This document shows, piece after piece, positions 2,762 through 63,667 of a DNA stretch of 64,000 nt. Source of the DNA: Octopus vulgaris. Lineage: Eukaryota. The stretch lies in assembly GCA_951406725.2 (NCBI GenBank), contig OX597818.1, forward strand, positions 99,696,001 through 99,760,000, written 5' to 3'. The notes beneath the pieces are model-generated. The model had not been told where the DNA came from. It saw nothing but the letters and a program-made list of their open reading frames with translations, and made no database searches. Both the position numbers and the translations under genes were made by a program. Positions within the stretch are counted from its first letter, which is position 1; each line of letters starts with the position of its first letter.

Positions 2762-3194
2762 ATAGAAATATTAATATTTCTAAGTATCTCTAAAGGAGAC
2801 TACGGCAGCGGTACTGAATATTAATATTTATCGCCAAGCTAAAATAGGACGAAGGCTGCTGTTGATTAGCTCAAAGAGGCCGTCGCCTCTAGCTAGCTAT
2901 CCGACACACGAACCTGTGTCCATTATAACTTTCGAACAGGAGAGGTCAGCCGCTTCTCCTTGCTGGTCTGGCATCTACAGACTAGTTTCAGGGTATTTGC
3001 CCCTTATCAATGTAGAGCAGCCGAACCACGCAGGCGTCGCTATTGACAGCCTGTTCGAAGGATTATTTACCTAAATTCAGTGGAATACATCCACTGGTTT
3101 TCAAAAATAGAAGTATTAATATTTCTAAGTCTTTCTAAAGAAGACAACGGCAGCGGTACCGGATATTAATAGTTATCGCCAAGCTAACATGGCT
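2762..3194 (-). mobile_element. Retrozyme-like / Penelope-pLTR-like element, ~1.25 tandem units of ~345 bp
   Basis: ~80-bp direct repeats at 2762-2842 and 3107-3188; internal hammerhead fold; second copy at 25790-26157. Confidence 0.75.
2974..3016 (-). ncRNA. Minimal type I hammerhead ribozyme fold, U3-A8 core variant
   Basis: Minus strand reads tctaca-TTGATAA-gggg caaata ccct-GAAA-ctag-TC-tgtaga: 6-bp helix I, 4-bp helix II, palindromic helix III (actagt), GUC site. Confidence 0.7.
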
Positions 3195-11683: not shown

Positions 11684-12222
11684 ATTTATTGCCCACAAGG
11701 GGCTAAACATAGAGGGGACAAACAAGGACATACAAAGGGATTAAGTTGATTACATCAACCCCAGTGCGTAACTGGTACTTAATTTATCGACCCTGAAAGG
11801 CTGAGAGGCAAAGTTGACTTCGGCGGCATCTGAACTCAGAACGTAGCGGCAGACGAAATACCTATTTCTTTACTACCCACCGTGGGTTAAACATAGAGTG
11901 GACAAACAAGGACAGACAAATGGATTAAATCGATTATATCGACACCAGTGCGTAACTGGTACTTAATTTATCTGCCCCTAAAAGATTGAAGGGCAAATTC
12001 GACCTCGGCGGAATTTGTACTCAGAACGTAAATGCAGACGAAATACCTATTTCTTTACTACCCACAGTGGGCTAAACATAGATTGGACAACTTAATTTAT
12101 CGACCCCGAAAGGCTGAAAGGCGAAGTCGACCTTAGCGGAATTTGTACTCAGAACGTAACGGCAAACGAAATACTGCTAAGCATTTCGCTCGGAGTGCTA
12201 ACATTTCTGCCAGCTCGCCGCC
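11684..12222 (-). mobile_element. SINE family A trimer (one tRNA-like head plus three body units)
   Basis: Head ggcggcgagctggcagaa ends at 12222. Two junctions gaaata-cc-tatttc at ~11860 and ~12045. The head-proximal unit has an internal deletion. Confidence 0.9.
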
Positions 12223-12225
12223 TTA

Positions 12226-15084: not shown

Positions 15085-15594
15085 CAGGACAAAGTCAGAC
15101 TGTTGACGACCTATTTTTAATGGTCTCTACAAGTGTAGCTAGAAGTACGCCTCTAGTGGGGAACGGAATTGAATGATTTCACGTAATCTAGTCAGACTGT
15201 AACCAATTTTTTCGCACTTTGTCGTCATATCTCTGACATCATAGCTTTGTTTGATTTAGTTGTTCAATACATTCTTAAACCCTTTCCTTCCCAGCTGTTC
15301 ATATGTACGTTTGTGCACGCGCAACACACATTCACTCACAGGACAAAGTCAGACTGTTGACGACCTATTTTTAATGGTCTCTACAAGTGTAGCTAGAAGT
15401 ACGCCTCTAGTGGGGAACGGAATTGAATGATTTCACGTAATCTAGTCAGACTGTAACCAATTTTTTCGCACTTTGTCGTCATATCTCTGACATCATAGCT
15501 TTGTTTGATTTAGTTGTTCAATACATTCTTAAACCCTTTCCTTCCCAGCTGTTCATATGTACGTTTGTGCACGCGCAACACACATTCACTCACA
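15085..15594. repeat. Apparently perfect 254-bp tandem duplication
   Basis: 15085-15338 equals 15339-15592 by eye; 2-bp CA microhomology at the junction. Confidence 0.92.
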
Positions 15595-24225: not shown

Positions 24226-24295
24226 TATTGTTAATTTCAGGATCATGTGTAAACACTTGTTTCGAAGACACGTTTTCAATAAGTAACGAATTTTT

Positions 24296-24472
24296 TTTCT
24301 TTATTGCCCACAGGGGGCTAAACATAGAGGAGACAAACAAGGACAAAGGGATTAAGTCGATTACATCGACCCCGGTACGTAACTGGTACTTATTTAATCG
24401 ACCTCGAAAGGATGAAAGGCAAAGTCCACCTCGGCGGAATTCGAACTCAGAACGTAACGGTAGACGAAATAC
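24296..24472 (-). mobile_element. SINE family A headless body monomer
   Basis: Matches the family A body and stops at gacgaaatac, the same point as the multimer junction. Confidence 0.88.
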
Positions 24473-25404
24473 GAGAGAGCCCGTACATGGTCACAAACCT
24501 GATAGAAATCAGCTAAATTCATCCTAGTTGATAAAGAAAACGATTGGTAATGTTCTACAGATGTGCCCAAAAAGATGGGGTTGGTCGGCTCAAACATGGT
24601 TGATCTGGGACTAAACAACTCCAGTTTATGATATGATGAAAGCAACATAAATGCAAAGTTGTGCAATAAACAGAATTGCTTTCCTTTTATACTAGTGGGT
24701 GTATGACACAATATATTACTGATTACTTTTCTTTGCCTCTATAAATTAGTTCTGTCTTCGCTCTACATTCTCCTTTGCTGACGTTAATACTTTAGTTTTA
24801 TTACATGCCATTTATAAAGAAAATACCGCTCTCTTATGTTAGTTAATTGAACATGACACGCTTGCCTGATTTTCCTTTCGATAGATGATGCTAAGAAACT
24901 TTTATAGTGGTTTCAGCAAATTAAAGTTTTTAATCGAACGTAATTATTCATTTTTATAATAAAGTTAAAGATAAACATAAATATACAAATAAATAATGAA
25001 TAAATAATATTTCTTATCTTTCTATTTAAAAAGGAAGAGAAGGAATAAAAAATTCAGCTTGAAGTTTGGCAATTTAACTTTATGTTTTGTTTTGTTTTAC
25101 CTTTCTGCCGTTATAATGGGGCACTGATCTTAAAAGTTTATAACAAATTTAAAATAAAAGACAAATACATTAAAATCTTTAAGTACATTAAAATCTTTAT
25201 CTATATTCTTATATTGCATCTTGAAGCTGAGCTGTGAAATAAAACGTTAATTTTATAAGAAAAATTATTAATGCAAAATGTATAATAAAATCTGTCGAGG
25301 TGAGATTAGAAATCAAACTAAAATTTTCAAATTTTTAAGCATAAAAATACACTACATTGTATTTTGACATAAAATGAAATATATATATATTATAAATCAT
25401 TAAA

Positions 25405-25535
25405 ATCAAATTCCACCAAGGTTGACTTTGCCTGTCATCCTTCGGGGTCGATAAAATAAAGTACCATTTGAATACTAGGGTCGATGTAATCGACTGTTCC
25501 TTTCCCCTCAGGCTTTGTGACTAAAGTTGAGAAGA
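25405..25535 (+). mobile_element. SINE family A-related fragment with a variant tail
   Basis: tcaaattccaccaaggttgactttgcctgtcatccttcggggtcgataaaataaagtacc. Confidence 0.75.
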
Positions 25536-25789
25536 AAAATATGTTATAAATCATTAAGAGATGCGATTTTGTGAGGTTCATGACCTTCCGAAGTTCATTA
25601 ATTTGAATTTGCATTAATCGATCACGGAAACATAGAGGAAATCTCGAATAAGATTTTACTGTATATGAGAACAGAGATATAAAATCTTTGCTTTGTTGGG
25701 GATGGGTGAAGTTGGCTAAATGAAAATTCAGTGAATTGTAAGAATTGAACGAAGAAAAGAGAGTAAACCGAAAACTGATAATAGTAGAA

Positions 25790-26157
25790 TAGAAATATTA
25801 ACATTTCTAAGTCTCTCTAAAGGAGACTACGGCAGCGGTACTGGAAATTAACAGTTCACCAAGCTAATATGGCTGCCCATAAATATACGACGGAAGCTGC
25901 CTTTGATTAGCTTCAAGAGGCCATCGCCTCTAGCTAGTTATATGACACACGAACCTGTGTCCATTATAGCCTTCGAACAGGGGAGGTCAGCCGCTTCCCC
26001 TTGCTGGTCAGGCATCTGTAGACATGTTTCAGGGTATTTGCCCTTTATCAATGCAGAGTAGCCAAAACCAGCAGGCGTCGCTACTAACCATCTGTTCGAA
26101 GGATTATTTACCTAATTTCAGTGGAATACATCCACTGGTTTTCGAAAATAGAAAATT
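25790..26157 (-). mobile_element. Retrozyme-like element, unit-length monomer with 14-bp TSD
   Basis: Homologous to 2762-3194; flanked by TGATAATAGTAGAA at 25776-25789 and 26158-26171. Confidence 0.8.
26015..26057 (-). ncRNA. Minimal type I hammerhead ribozyme fold, U3-A8 core variant
   Basis: Minus strand: tctgca-TTGATAA-aggg caaata ccct-GAAA-catg-TC-tacaga; helix III palindrome acatgt. Confidence 0.7.
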
Positions 26158-26860
26158 TGATAATAGTAGAACTTGAATTTTAAACAGAAAATTTAGAGGC
26201 AACCCACATACAATGGGCTGTTCTTAAATTTTCCAAATTCTATCATTTACCGAAGGGACAAAAGCAAGGCTCAGGCAGGCGAGAGTTGAGCTCAGAAAAT
26301 AAAGGAACATAATTAGATGCTGTTATATAATATATTTCTCGTTCTATTGTTGTAATCAACTTACTGTTTTATTTTATGTTGATAAAATATATACAATTCT
26401 ATGTGGAATTATATTAGAATGGTATAATCACTCCTTTTATAAACAAAACGATAAGGGTTTTCCTTAATAAGTCGCAAATATGATGTGAGGATCCAGACAT
26501 AAACATTAAAAGATAGATATAAATTTAGAGACAGAGCGAGAATGAAAGAGAATGGGAAAGAAAGGAAACGAGAATAGTAGAGTAAAAGAGAGAGCGGTGA
26601 ACTGATTATAAAAACAAATAAGTTCATTTGCGAATACTGAAAGCTAAATCAATTACTAACAGAAATACAGAGAAACAAAGTTAGACAGAAGACGACTATA
26701 GACAGACAGAAATATAAATGAATATTCATAAAGAATCTGAAAGACCAATATATAAAAGTGAGTGATTATGATGTACAACGTGGTAAATGTACAGAAGAGT
26801 TAACTAACTATAAAGATGGATGGATATACACACACAGGAACACACACACACACGCACGCA

Positions 26861-37974: not shown

Positions 37975-38206
37975 GGCGGTGAGCTGGTAGAAACGTTAGC
38001 ACGCCGAGCGAAATGCGTAGCCGTATTTCGTATGCCGTTACGTTCGAAGTTCAAATCCCGCCGAAGTCGACTTTGCCTTTCATCCTTTTGGGGTCGATAA
38101 ATTAAGTACCAGTTACGCACTGGGGTCGATATAATCGACTTAATCCGTTTGTCTGTCCTTGTTTGTCCTCTCTGTGTTTAGCCCATTGTGGGTAGTAAAG
38201 AAATAG
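37975..38206 (+). mobile_element. SINE family A, full-length monomer
   Basis: ggcggtgagctggtagaa head, B box gttcaaatccc, tail gtaaagaaatag; possible short TSD ATAT(GG). Confidence 0.92.
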
Positions 38207-38987
38207 ATATGGGTCATCCTTCCCACAACAACAACAACAACAAAAACAGCAGCAATAACAACAACAACTACAACAACCACAGCAGCAGCAGCAATAGCAA
38301 CAACAACAAAGATTTCAGTAATAATAAAACTCGAGAAAAAAAATAAAGACGGGTGCAATAATATTAATATTAGTTATAAAAATAAATTAATAAGCAAAAC
38401 ATAAGCAAATATCATAAGAGCAAGTTCAACAACATTTCTATTGCTGAAAATATTATTGATTTTTCTTTGCGAAAAACTAATTATTTACTTCTATCACTAA
38501 ATTTGATTTTTGTTCATTTATATAGTATTTTTATTTTCTTTTTCCAGTATTTGGCAAAGCATATTGGAATTGCTGTTCCGGTTATAGATTCAAAAATTCA
38601 ATTTAGATATAAGACAAACACATAAAATGCTATATACGTACACACATACATTTACACACGCACATGCATATATATGTGTGTGTATGTGCGTACTATCGTT
38701 ATATATATAAGTATATATAAGCTTATATAATATGGATGTATATGTGTATAATATATATATATATATATCTTATATATATATATCCATATGATATACGTTT
38801 ATATATGAGTATTATATATGTAATATATTAAATGCATTATATATTGTATATTATACATATATATATATATATATTATTCCTTAATATTCATTTACAAATA
38901 TATATATATATATATATAAATCTAAAATAATATTAAACATACATATGCATATGATATATGTATGGATAATAAATACATGTATGTATG

Positions 38988-44338: not shown

Positions 44339-44880
44339 AATTAGGGCGTTCAGCTATCATAAATAACTTGGGTTCAATTTTTAAACTGGCCTGTGTGTTG
44401 TGTTCCTTAGCAAAGCGCTACGTTTCGCGTCCATCCAATATACTTAGCTGGAAATAAGTATCCTACGAGTGCTAGTTAACCTCCTTCATCCTCCAGTTTT
44501 CACACCTGGATGTACCTCTGGATCAAAGTGTGAGAGAGCCGATAGTGAAAGCATAGTACATGTTTCCAAACCAAACTCGTTCCTGGATGCCGACTGGCTT
44601 TTGATTCTACAGACGATAATTTTTTTTCTTTCCTCTCTAGTCTCGATTTATTTCACCTCCAGTTAGAATATTATAACCATAACCAAATGCCGGTGAAGAC
44701 ATTCAATTGAAGTCGATTAATTTATTCTTAACTTTTAGTTTTGTGTTAATTTTTAAATTACTGCGATTAGCTTTCTTAATTTTTCTTTCGTTCATCAGTT
44801 ATACAGTATCCATTTCAATGATTTCCAAGCATTTCCAGGTTACGATTAGATCTTATAAGCTTATATGTATATTTATGGAA

Positions 44881-45111
44881 GGCGGCGAGCTAGCAGAAAC
44901 GTTAGGGCGCCAGGCGAAATGCTTAGCGGTATTTCGTCTGTTGTTACGTTCTGAGTTCAAATTCCGCCGAGGTCGACTTTGCCTTTCATCTTTTCGGGGT
45001 TGATAAATAAAGTACCAGTTTCGCACTGGGGTCGATGTAATCGACTTAATCCGTTTGTCTGTCCTTGTTTGTCCCCTCTATGTTTAGCCCCTTGTGTATA
45101 GTAAAGAAATA
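44881..45111 (+). mobile_element. SINE family A, full-length monomer
   Basis: ggcggcgagctagcagaaacg...gtaaagaaata; tatatttatg occurs on both flanks (possible TSD). Confidence 0.92.
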
Positions 45112-45269
45112 TATATATATATTTATGAGACTTGGTAATAATATATAATTAATTTTCTCCTCATTCGGACTGGATTGGAATATTTCTATTTGAAGTTTAT
45201 AGCAATTCCTCTTCCAAATCCGTGCATTATCTGCTGTTATTGCTTCGTTGATTTCAGCAGCGTATGACA

Positions 45270-62030: not shown

Positions 62031-62461
62031 TACAGGCCGTGTTTCTCCTCTCGATTAAAAATAACGTGGTGTTAGACAACGATACCAAATAGCAGATTAT
62101 TGCCAAACATGAAACAGAAAATGCACTTTGACTTCGACAACAGACCATAAAACTCATTTACATTATTCAGACTACTAACAGAACCATTAAGTCCTTCGAC
62201 TCTATCCTTGCCATCCGTAAGAAAAAATGCTAAACGCTTCAGTTAGAAGCAATACACAACACGGACTAGAGCACTGCCTTCCAAATTATCGAATCTATGT
62301 AAGAGCAGTACTAAAATCTGTATGTTCTAAATGTACCTCAAAGACTTTCCTTTATCCGTTTAAGAATTGTATTTAGCTGCTGTTTCTCAAATCCACACAC
62401 CTAGATGACATAACAATCATTTTGCACTAATCCACAAAAGTAGATACAACCTTGCATTAAC

Positions 62462-62878
62462 TTATTTCTTTACTACCCACAAGGGGCTAAACACAGAGAG
62501 GACAAACAAGGACAGACAAACGGATTAAGTCGATTATATCGACCCCAGTGCATGACTGCTACTTATTTAATCGACCCCGAAAGGATGAAAGGCAAAGTCG
62601 ACCTCGGCGAAATTTGAACTCAGAACGTACGGCAGAGGAAATACCTATTTCTTTACTATCCACAAGGGGCTAAACACAGAGAGGACAAACAAGGACTAAC
62701 AAACGGATTAAGTCGATTATATCAACCCCAGTGCGTAACTGGTACTTATTTAATCGACCCCGAAATGATGAAAGGCAAAGTCGACCACGGTGGAATTTGA
62801 ACTCAGAACGTAGCGGCAGACGAAATACTGCTAAGCATTTCGCCCGGTGTGCTAACGTTTCTGCCAGCTCGCTGCCTT
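62462..62878 (-). mobile_element. SINE family A dimer (head plus two body units)
   Basis: Junction gaaata-cc-tatttc at 62638-62651, identical to those in 11684-12222. Confidence 0.92.
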
Positions 62879-63667
62879 GCACTAACCATCTCTGAAACAG
62901 CAAACTTAAAGCAGCTCCTAGGAAGTAGACCATCACACCTCATACCAGTAACGCCAGAGAACCTGATTTGAAGTAAACCATCATACTGAGTATTATAAAT
63001 AGAATACACACACTGAAGACAGACATGTTTTACATATATACTTCTTTCAGTTTCGATTGCTTTTGTAGAGAAAAAAGCAGACCAATGCACAAATACTTAG
63101 ATTTCACAGAAGCACAGCATGCAGTTAGCACAAACAAATGAAAAAATCATTAAGTAAAAAGAAAAACAGTCGATAAATATGTTTTTCGATTCATCATGTT
63201 TCGTAGCAGTCCTGGCTGAGCCTCTAGGCTTTCACATTTAATCATAACAAGCTAAGAAAGAACAACAATTATATCGTACTTTGTTCCATCATGGGCTATA
63301 CGCAGATTACACGCATACATCACCAGCATAAAGGAAAATAAAAATAAAACAACAAAACCAAGCATAAAACCAAAGCTGTATCAACGTACGTATGACATTT
63401 TTTTCTCACAATTACTTCTGCTACATTTTCAATCACCCAAAGCAAAAATGATTTTTCGAAAAGAATAAACGATTTCTATTAATCCTACCATTCATTCAGT
63501 CCAGACAAACTGAAAATACTTAGTACACATGAAATTAACAGCATTAATAGCATCCATATACCATATTGAAATACCAAGCAGCAAAGATGAATGCAAAGGA
63601 GCAGCAGCTACTGACTTTGGCTGGGATTCAGCTGCCATCTGTCGTGGCCGCCATAATACACAGACAC

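What the first reader, a model, noticed from the sequence alone, without database searches (positions are those of the whole stretch)
25776..26171. Second copy: exact unit length, 14-bp TSD and structure-preserving changes in the ribozyme
Seen: starts at essentially the same point as the 2762 copy, spans one unit, and is flanked by TGATAATAGTAGAA. Relative to copy 1, the helix III palindrome changes actagt to acatgt (still palindromic), helix I swaps an A-U pair for G-C (plus one mismatch), and helix II closes A-U instead of G-U, while UUGAUAA/GAAA/GUC are unchanged. Inference: selection on the RNA fold (dimeric cleavage through the palindrome) and insertion by target-primed reverse transcription using a helper RT.
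Basis: partly seen in the sequence, partly recalled or inferred. Interest (0 to 1): 0.72.

Follow-up and report, generated by a model that had tools for sequence, protein, structure and literature searches.

The report
Hammerhead retrozyme riding Penelope-like machinery
This is one decayed copy of a small, many-copy jumping element whose RNA folds into a hammerhead ribozyme; its relatives show that the fold was kept by selection and that it was likely pasted in by a Penelope-type reverse transcriptase, a known kind of element seen here with unusually clear evidence.

Summary
The observation largely holds. The 14-bp repeat flanks 25790-26157 exactly and occurs only twice in the window. A type I hammerhead with a U3-A8 core lies on the minus strand (26015-26057), and the listed differences from copy 1 are right. 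'Exact unit length' is not: the insert is 368 nt, the unit 359 nt, and 0 of 83 tail-anchored copies are unit-length. The element belongs to a family with 2,964 first-look candidates. Stem changes between subfamilies are compensatory, and all four palindromic helix III loops define lineages (43 of 43 G/C loops palindromic). Selection acted on source elements; inserted copies, this one included, decay neutrally. Insertions have two fixed start sites 57 nt apart, inverted arms, (TA)n targets and 9-14 bp TSDs: the Penelope-like (PLE) signature. Two Neptune/Nematis-type PLE families in the genome are candidate helpers; neither shares more than a 9-nt end. Cleavage, circles and expression are untested. 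Verdict: new member of a known kind (non-LTR retrozyme, non-autonomous PLE).

The parts
25776..25789 (.). Left copy of the 14-bp target-site duplication
   Evidence: exact match to 26158-26171, only two places in the window
25790..26157 (-). Retrozyme insertion, 368 nt: one 359-nt unit (25790-26148), 6 nt of a second round, 3 further bases; 43.5% GC; longest ATG frame 44 aa
   Evidence: (joints that go back 359)
25790..25846 (-). PLE-type 'tail': 57 nt between the two fixed start sites; begins with a 20-nt palindrome (one change here, perfect in copy 1). First start site (q1) at 25790
   Evidence: fixed insertion ends at q1 and about q58 across 162 insertions; palindrome; role as RT start site inferred from PMC11167929
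25847..25864 (-). Second fixed start site of the family (about q58); not used by this copy
   Evidence: 63 of 162 insertions have their inverted arm ending at q50-75
26015..26057 (-). Type I hammerhead: helix I 26052-26057 with 26015-26020 (C.A mismatch at 26053/26019), core UUGAUAA 26045-26051 (U3-A8), helix II 26041-26044 with 26031-26034, GAAA 26027-26030, predicted cleavage between 26021 and 26020
   Evidence: the cleavage position follows from hammerhead numbering, not from an assay
26022..26027 (-). Palindromic helix III/loop III (ACAUGU), predicted to pair between two ribozymes
   Evidence: all four palindromic loops occur in the family; cofold
26158..26171 (.). Right copy of the 14-bp target-site duplication
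   Evidence: both junctions are also held by contigs of two other runs
2763..3194 (-). Copy 1 of the same family, other subfamily (83.6% identical): 345-nt unit plus 85-nt partial repeat, hammerhead core ending at 3010, flanked only by short TA-rich repeats

Best explanation
The stretch is one dead-end copy of a 359-nt non-coding element with a minus-strand type I hammerhead, flanked by a 14-bp duplication, and it was likely inserted by the reverse transcriptase and GIY-YIG endonuclease of a Penelope-like element acting in trans. Shown: the family has thousands of candidate copies, two fixed insertion ends 57 nt apart, head-to-tail partial repeats, inverted arms, AT-rich or (TA)n targets, 9-14 bp duplications, compensatory stem changes between subfamilies and a loop that stays palindromic through three double changes. 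Inferred: rare tandem source loci are transcribed; two ribozymes pair through the palindrome and cleave; the monomer likely circularises (or uncut tandem RNA is used); the PLE protein nicks both DNA strands about 12-14 bp apart and starts cDNA at the internal sites, usually one site per strand; copying runs past the cleavage site and round the unit and stops at variable points. This copy used only the tail site, made one round, has a single ribozyme with a helix I mismatch, and would not be a source.
For: TSD exact; 25 of 162 insertions have a non-simple exact flanking repeat of 9-14 bp, 10 of them 12 bp, against 19 of 480 shifted controls of any complexity. Ends: 63 of 162 have q1 at one end and an inverted q58 arm at the other, 63 q1 plus a variable end, 14 q58 plus a variable end. 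This is the tail, inverted copy and partial tandem described for PLEs (PMC8557442 passages; PMC3846280 passages, 8-10 bp TSDs) and matches two internal RT start sites and two-strand priming shown in vitro (PMC11167929 main text). Covariation: 94.0% of cells paired against 88.9 shuffled, 135 double-change cells against 49.7, 0 of 500 shuffles, slid controls at most 23; on a tree from non-ribozyme columns the changes fall on subfamily branches. Loop III: 100 of 100 listed matches UA or AU, 98 of 100 palindromic, 43 of 43 G/C loops palindromic. No shared variant in 13 core columns against 72 of 211 others (composition-matched P about 0.018). Intact 784-aa RT+GIY-YIG frames exist in the genome.
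Against: No autonomous PLE with extended homology to the unit was found among three PLE families sampled. Most insertions lack a recognisable TSD (25 of 86 with non-simple flanks; 5 of 34 in this copy's own class; one of the 25, L167, is element-derived). No empty site was seen. The shuffle control ignores relatedness, so the independent events are few (about four double stem changes and three loop changes), and 17 of the 102 aligned rows came from a search that required an intact core and helix II. Piece ends do not pile up at the cleavage site (8 of 130 against 13 and 7 in neighbouring bins), so genomic DNA gives no direct trace of cleavage. In the one PLE tested in vitro, ribozyme cleavage was not needed for insertion (PMC11167929), and 8 of 9 Xenopus retrozyme dimers did not cleave in vitro (10.64898/2026.07.22.740005).
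Confidence: 0.8

Rival explanations
1. The template is uncut linear tandem RNA, and the ribozyme matters at another step (trimming read-through transcripts, RNP folding), not for making circles.
For: No excess of ends at the cleavage site; 120 of 162 insertions cross it (sample biased to long copies). Unprocessed RNA was the main substrate in vitro (PMC11167929). Loci of more than two units exist (L288, L289).
Against: Same-strand ribozyme pairs are rare (2 of 162, plus two), yet 63 of 162 insertions cross the head-to-tail junction. Mussel, coral and axolotl retrozymes accumulate as circles (PMC7229834). This rival shares the PLE helper and differs only in the template.
Confidence: 0.35
2. The copies are solo pseudo-LTRs: 5'-truncated ends of an autonomous PLE not yet found, so the unit is not an independent element.
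For: PLE pLTRs carry hammerheads, including U3-A8 cores (PMC4209133); 24 of 57 Xenopus retrozyme families match Repbase elements, nearly all PLEs. The oldest lineage here has the ACCGGU loop also found in the Neptune-type B ribozyme.
Against: After q359 copies return to q1 rather than run into coding sequence (63 of 162). PLE coding fragments near copies lie in unrelated positions and families; none of six 10-kb regions round the oldest lineage holds a PLE frame.
Confidence: 0.12
3. A LINE (RTE or CR1 type) mobilises it like a SINE, and the inversions come from ordinary twin priming.
For: Variable TSDs and 5' truncation also mark LINE insertions; LINE fragments occur in the loci.
Against: No poly(A) or simple-repeat 3' end of its own; the inverted arm starts at a fixed site; the two arms overlap on the template by 20 nt or more in 60 of 63 cases, unlike twin priming on one linear RNA (recalled); the local PLEs show the same two-end pattern.
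Confidence: 0.05
4. The 14-bp repeat is chance or a DNA-level duplication, and the copy-1/copy-2 differences are drift.
For: AT-rich flanks; no empty site seen.
Against: The repeat is exact, non-simple and at both boundaries; 24 other insertions show the same class of repeat; covariation and palindrome counts exceed controls.
Confidence: 0.03

Closest known systems
Metazoan non-LTR retrozymes (Cervera and de la Pena 2020, PMC7229834), e.g. the 350-390 bp mussel repeats
   Same: Small non-coding unit under 50% GC, one type I hammerhead per unit with short palindromic helix III, thousands of copies, TSD longer than 4 bp when present.
   Different: U3-A8 core; mostly dispersed fragments of under two units with inverted arms, not long arrays; expression and circles not shown here; two fixed start sites are not described in the sections read.
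Penelope-like elements, Neptune/Nematis and Poseidon clades (PMC8557442, PMC3846280, PMC11167929)
   Same: Optional tail at one end, inverted 5'-truncated arm, partial tandems, (TA)n or AT-rich targets, TSD near 10 bp, internal start at two adjacent sites, hammerhead in the repeat.
   Different: No reading frame; tail 57 nt rather than 30-40; no extended homology to the pLTRs of the three local PLE families sampled.
Xenopus retrozymes as non-autonomous PLE derivatives (bioRxiv 10.64898/2026.07.22.740005)
   Same: Retrozyme and PLE co-occur; monomers are dispersed.
   Different: That link rests on co-occurrence and pLTR similarity; here it rests on insertion anatomy, and pLTR similarity is lacking.
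U3-A8 hammerheads of Schistosoma Cercyon PLEs (PMC4209133)
   Same: Same compensatory core pair; palindromic helix III; proposed dimeric cleavage and circular template.
   Different: Those are minimal motifs with long helix II and short helix I; this one has 6-bp helix I, 4-bp helix II and a 2-bp helix III.

Membership tests
Type I hammerhead ribozyme | Conserved core with a 3-8 pair, GAAA and NUH triplet | tested here: met
   UUGAUAA/GAAA/GUC; U3-A8 in 95 of 96 distinct rows; variant known (PMC4209133)
Type I hammerhead ribozyme | Three helices supported by covariation | tested here: met
   helix I 95.8%, II 93.2%, III 94.8% paired; double changes in helices I and II; one mismatch in this copy
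Type I hammerhead ribozyme | Match to an Rfam hammerhead model | tested here: not met
   no match at gathering score or E<=10; likely because of the U3-A8 core and minimal helix III (inference)
Type I hammerhead ribozyme | Self-cleavage, as monomer or dimer | not testable with these tools
   cofolding pairs the palindromes between two molecules, which is a prediction only
Non-LTR retrozyme | 150-450 bp non-coding unit, GC under 50%, one hammerhead per unit | tested here: met
   359 nt, 43.5% GC, longest ATG frame 44 aa
Non-LTR retrozyme | Many genomic copies, some in tandem | tested here: met
   2,964 first-look candidates, 566 exact motif matches; tandem ribozyme pairs at L026, L140, L288, L289; no long array seen
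Non-LTR retrozyme | TSD longer than 4 bp when present | tested here: met
   14 bp here; 9-14 bp in 25 of 162
Non-LTR retrozyme | Expressed as monomeric linear and circular RNA | not testable with these tools
   only assembled contigs of runs guessed to be RNA were offered
Non-autonomous Penelope-like element | Tail at one end, two fixed 3' ends | tested here: met
   q1 and q58 ends; 63 mixed against 1 q1/q1 and 0 q58/q58 among 162
Non-autonomous Penelope-like element | Partial tandems and inverted 5'-truncated arm | tested here: met
   63 of 162 with head-to-tail junction; inverted arms in 63 or more; absent from this particular copy except 6 nt of a second round
Non-autonomous Penelope-like element | AT-rich or microsatellite target | tested here: met
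   76 of 162 left flanks are simple repeats; flanks of 90 q1 ends are mostly A/T
Non-autonomous Penelope-like element | Terminal sequence shared with an autonomous partner | tested here: inconclusive
   9-nt end shared with Neptune-type A (19 of 30 loci); no longer homology with A, B or a third family; other PLE families not sampled
Autonomous PLE | RT plus GIY-YIG reading frame | tested here: not met
   no frame in the unit and no PLE protein match in the window

The most novel reading that the evidence does not exclude
The family records the retrozyme life cycle in its sequence: a circular RNA made by palindrome-paired double hammerheads is copied by a dimeric Neptune-type protein that primes the two nicked DNA strands at two different fixed sites, one each, recognising the RNA by a short end motif and fold rather than by pLTR homology. 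Purifying selection on the ribozyme would then show that cleavage is required in vivo although dispensable in vitro, and the intact 784-aa protein plus a 360-nt RNA would be a minimal system to test it.
Probability: 0.35. Interest if true: 0.65.

Novelty: new member of a known kind. Interest (0 to 1): 0.42.

Why it matters
How animal non-LTR retrozymes move, and whether their hammerheads matter for it, is open: published links to PLEs rest on co-occurrence and pLTR similarity, and the one in vitro PLE system did not need cleavage. This family gives population evidence on both points: PLE-type double start sites on a protein-free 360-nt unit, and lineages that tried all four palindromic loops and no other. 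A candidate helper with intact frames is in the same genome, so the question can be taken to the bench. The single copy flagged is itself an ordinary decayed insertion.

Tried and rejected
Rfam: nothing at gathering score or E<=10. Repeat and tandem finders were swamped by microsatellites. One search used a structure that was off by one column and gave 52% pairing; it was discarded and repeated in register. Whole-unit consensus folding (54 near-full copies) gave a weak structure, with few double changes outside the ribozyme domain, so no claim is made for covariation over the whole circle. My script's label for the young subfamily failed and was redone. Expression: no RNA holder listed on record; contigs of two runs guessed to be RNA cover parts of the unit and also the flanks, which says nothing either way. 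Empty site: none for this copy; joints across L065 had short sides and variable fill and were not accepted. Helper by homology: unit against 60 + 8 + 2 PLE loci gave only embedded retrozyme copies and exact matches of at most 13 nt; a 13-nt match in Neptune-type B lies about 13 nt inside its short end and was not taken as evidence. Pile-up of ends at the cleavage site: not seen. Earlier findings: none by sequence or words. Literature: searches for octopus or cephalopod with ribozyme, Penelope or retrotransposon terms listed no description of this family; Repbase, Dfam and paper supplements were not seen and may hold it.

Full report
Observation. The 14-mer TGATAATAGTAGAA stands at 25776-25789 and 26158-26171, nowhere else in the window, and cannot be extended. 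Between the two lie 368 nt that align with the copy at 2763 at 83.6% identity from the same first base. Read on the minus strand, both copies carry a type I hammerhead: 6-bp helix I, core UUGAUAA, 4-bp helix II, GAAA, a 2-bp helix III with a 2-nt loop, and GUC. A descriptor finds only these two in the window, against 0.3 per shuffle. Rfam misses them. The core has U3-A8 in place of C3-G8, a variant reported in PLE ribozymes (PMC4209133, main text read). 'Exact unit length' is not: the period is 359 nt (joints), so this insert is one unit plus 9 nt, and copy 1 is 345 + 85 nt. I number the unit q1-q359 from 25790; the predicted cleavage site is at q232/q231, far from either end.

Family. The genome (G000, 2.8 Gb; microsatellite-rich and octopus-like by my recall, not by a call) gives 2,964 first-look candidates for the unit, 277 and 566 exact ribozyme-motif matches and 214 exact tail-motif matches, with 0 for reversed controls. 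I examined 179 loci, 162 distinct insertions, drawn from two full-length searches, one ribozyme-anchored and one tail-anchored list. The sample is therefore not random; the 83 tail-anchored insertions are the least biased for length, range from 47 to 805 nt, and include no unit-length monomer. Contigs of two other runs hold both junctions of this copy, and one is labelled as a different organism.

Anatomy of insertions. One end is nearly always q1 (the RNA's 3' side). A second fixed end lies near q58. Of 162 insertions, 63 have q1 at one end and an inverted arm starting at q50-75 at the other, 63 have q1 and a variable end, 14 have q58 and a variable end, 1 has q1 at both ends, none has q58 at both, and 21 are other (the tail anchor excludes q58/q58, but the 26 ribozyme-anchored insertions have none either; one more q1/q1 fold-back appeared). 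The two arms overlap on the template by 20 nt or more in 60 of 63. 63 insertions cross the head-to-tail junction and 120 cross the cleavage site; ends are not enriched there (8 of 130 against 13 and 7). 76 left flanks are simple repeats. Exact non-simple flanking repeats of 9-14 bp occur in 25 of 162 (25 of 86 with non-simple flanks; 18 of 32 in the inverted class, 5 of 34 in this copy's class; one is element-derived), against 19 of 480 shifted controls counted at any complexity. A tail at one end, an inverted truncated arm, partial tandems and (TA)n bias are the described PLE traits (PMC8557442, passages); 8-10 bp TSDs and TSD-less copies both occur in rotifer PLEs (PMC3846280, passages). A purified PLE protein cuts AT-rich DNA on both strands and starts cDNA at two internal RNA sites that bound the tail (PMC11167929, main text). 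The q1 and q58 ends are best read as those two sites (inference).

Selection on the fold. Of 118 ribozyme segments I aligned 102, leaving out 14 second copies from the same locus and 2 with deletions. With the structure in register, 94.0% of cells pair (88.9 shuffled), 135 cells show a change on both sides (49.7 shuffled, 0 of 500; slid controls 8-23). The shuffle ignores kinship and 17 rows were found by an intact-core pattern, so I also built a tree of 90 near-full copies from non-ribozyme columns. The changes sit on subfamily branches: three double changes in helix I, one in helix II, G.U to A-U or G-C at the base of helix II, and UA to AU in loop III. A scattered C-to-U change in helix II (10 copies, G.U) does not follow the tree. 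Four complete pairs out of ten by chance has a rough probability of 2e-5. Loop III is the sharpest test: with both positions free, 100 of 100 listed matches are UA or AU and 98 of 100 are palindromic in a looser search; with both set to G or C, 43 of 43 are GC (28) or CG (15), none CC or GG (the 15 CG include five segmental duplicates, two arms of one insertion and one unrelated element). GC arose in the youngest lineage, CG marks the oldest. Since these two bases are a loop in a monomer, keeping them self-complementary points to pairing between two ribozymes, as proposed for metazoan hammerheads (PMC4209133) and shown for axolotl dimers (PMC7229834, results sections). Rare variants, in contrast, fall on core, stems and the rest equally (1.8, 1.6, 1.7%), whereas shared variants avoid the core (0 of 13 columns against 72 of 211; matched P about 0.018). 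Selection therefore acted on source elements, and inserted copies decay. This copy's C.A mismatch is seen in 3 of 102 rows and it has one ribozyme only; tandem pairs, the likely sources, are rare (L026, L140, L288, L289).

Helper. The window holds no PLE protein match. Fragments beside other copies led to three PLE families. Family A has a C-terminal GIY-YIG behind a CxxxxCxxC motif (Neptune/Nematis type by the criterion in PMC8557442; no tree was built), mostly broken frames, and ends in ATATTTCTA before (TA)n in 19 of 30 loci, the same nine bases that end the retrozyme RNA; 5 of 30 end about 49 nt earlier. The 9-mer occurs 8 times in 128,000 window positions, but both ends are AT-rich and several ends were compared, so this is a lead. 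Family B (58% identical to A) has dozens of intact 784-aa RT+GIY-YIG frames (GIY-YIG just under Pfam's cut-off), a U3-A8 hammerhead with the palindrome ACCGGU, and two ends about 33 nt apart; all 5 loci with both orientations have one of each. Mean identities are 96.2% (A), 98.7% (B), 97.0% (youngest retrozyme lineage) and 86-91% (older lineages) (A and B are best-hit samples). Neither family shows extended homology to the unit. My odds: A 0.4, B 0.25, unsampled 0.35, and the helper may have changed over time.

Mechanism and limits. Shown: anatomy, TSD class, covariation, neutral decay, presence of PLEs with the same two-end pattern. Inferred: transcription of tandem sources, dimeric cleavage, circularisation, PLE priming at q1 and q58, one site per strand. 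A circle explains copying through the cleavage site and past the junction when dimers are rare, but uncut tandem RNA is not excluded, and cleavage was dispensable in vitro (PMC11167929). No empty site and no RNA evidence were obtained.

Comparison and verdict. It works like, and meets the sequence-level tests for, a non-LTR retrozyme (PMC7229834) and a non-autonomous PLE; the view that these are the same thing is already argued (bioRxiv 10.64898/2026.07.22.740005, main text read). I found no description of this family in three searches, but repeat libraries and supplements were not seen. It is a new member of a known kind. Its value is the clear palindrome series and the two-site anatomy, which make the retrozyme-PLE link testable. 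Interest 0.42.

Noticed in passing
L278:2833-5184 (+) and about 150 matches in G000: Very young Neptune/Nematis-type PLE family with dozens of intact 784-aa RT+GIY-YIG frames, head-to-tail tandems, a U3-A8 hammerhead and two 3' ends; likely still active.
   Followed up: partly
L181-L209, about 150-260 nt after the GIY-YIG frame: Family A carries a hammerhead-like motif with a long palindromic helix III but an apparently incomplete core (no clear C3-U4); my descriptor did not call it.
   Followed up: no
L317 (G000:C25:21385691): A U3-A8 hammerhead with ACCGGU loop in a sequence unrelated to this unit and with no PLE frame within 5 kb: possibly a second retrozyme family.
   Followed up: partly
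L306/L307 (G000:C9:13668155-13668598): Insertion that is a perfect fold-back including its flanks, with the tail site at both ends; a different route from the usual mixed ends.
   Followed up: no
L312, L313, L315, L316 and G000:C29:16097760: One old insertion carried in large segmental duplications on C29 and C10 (flanks 90-97% identical over kilobases).
   Followed up: partly
window 25406-25495, 11685-12224, 24293-24473, 37975-38210, 44876-45116, 62460-62881: A very high-copy SINE-like family, some in tandem 185-bp units; one fragment lies 280 bp left of the finding.
   Followed up: no
window 15085-15594: Perfect (100%) tandem duplication of 254 bp of non-repetitive sequence: very recent or an assembly artefact.
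   Followed up: no
L216 and L246-L247: An older Penelope/Poseidon-like family with mostly broken frames; one locus has a canonical C3-G8 hammerhead downstream.
   Followed up: no
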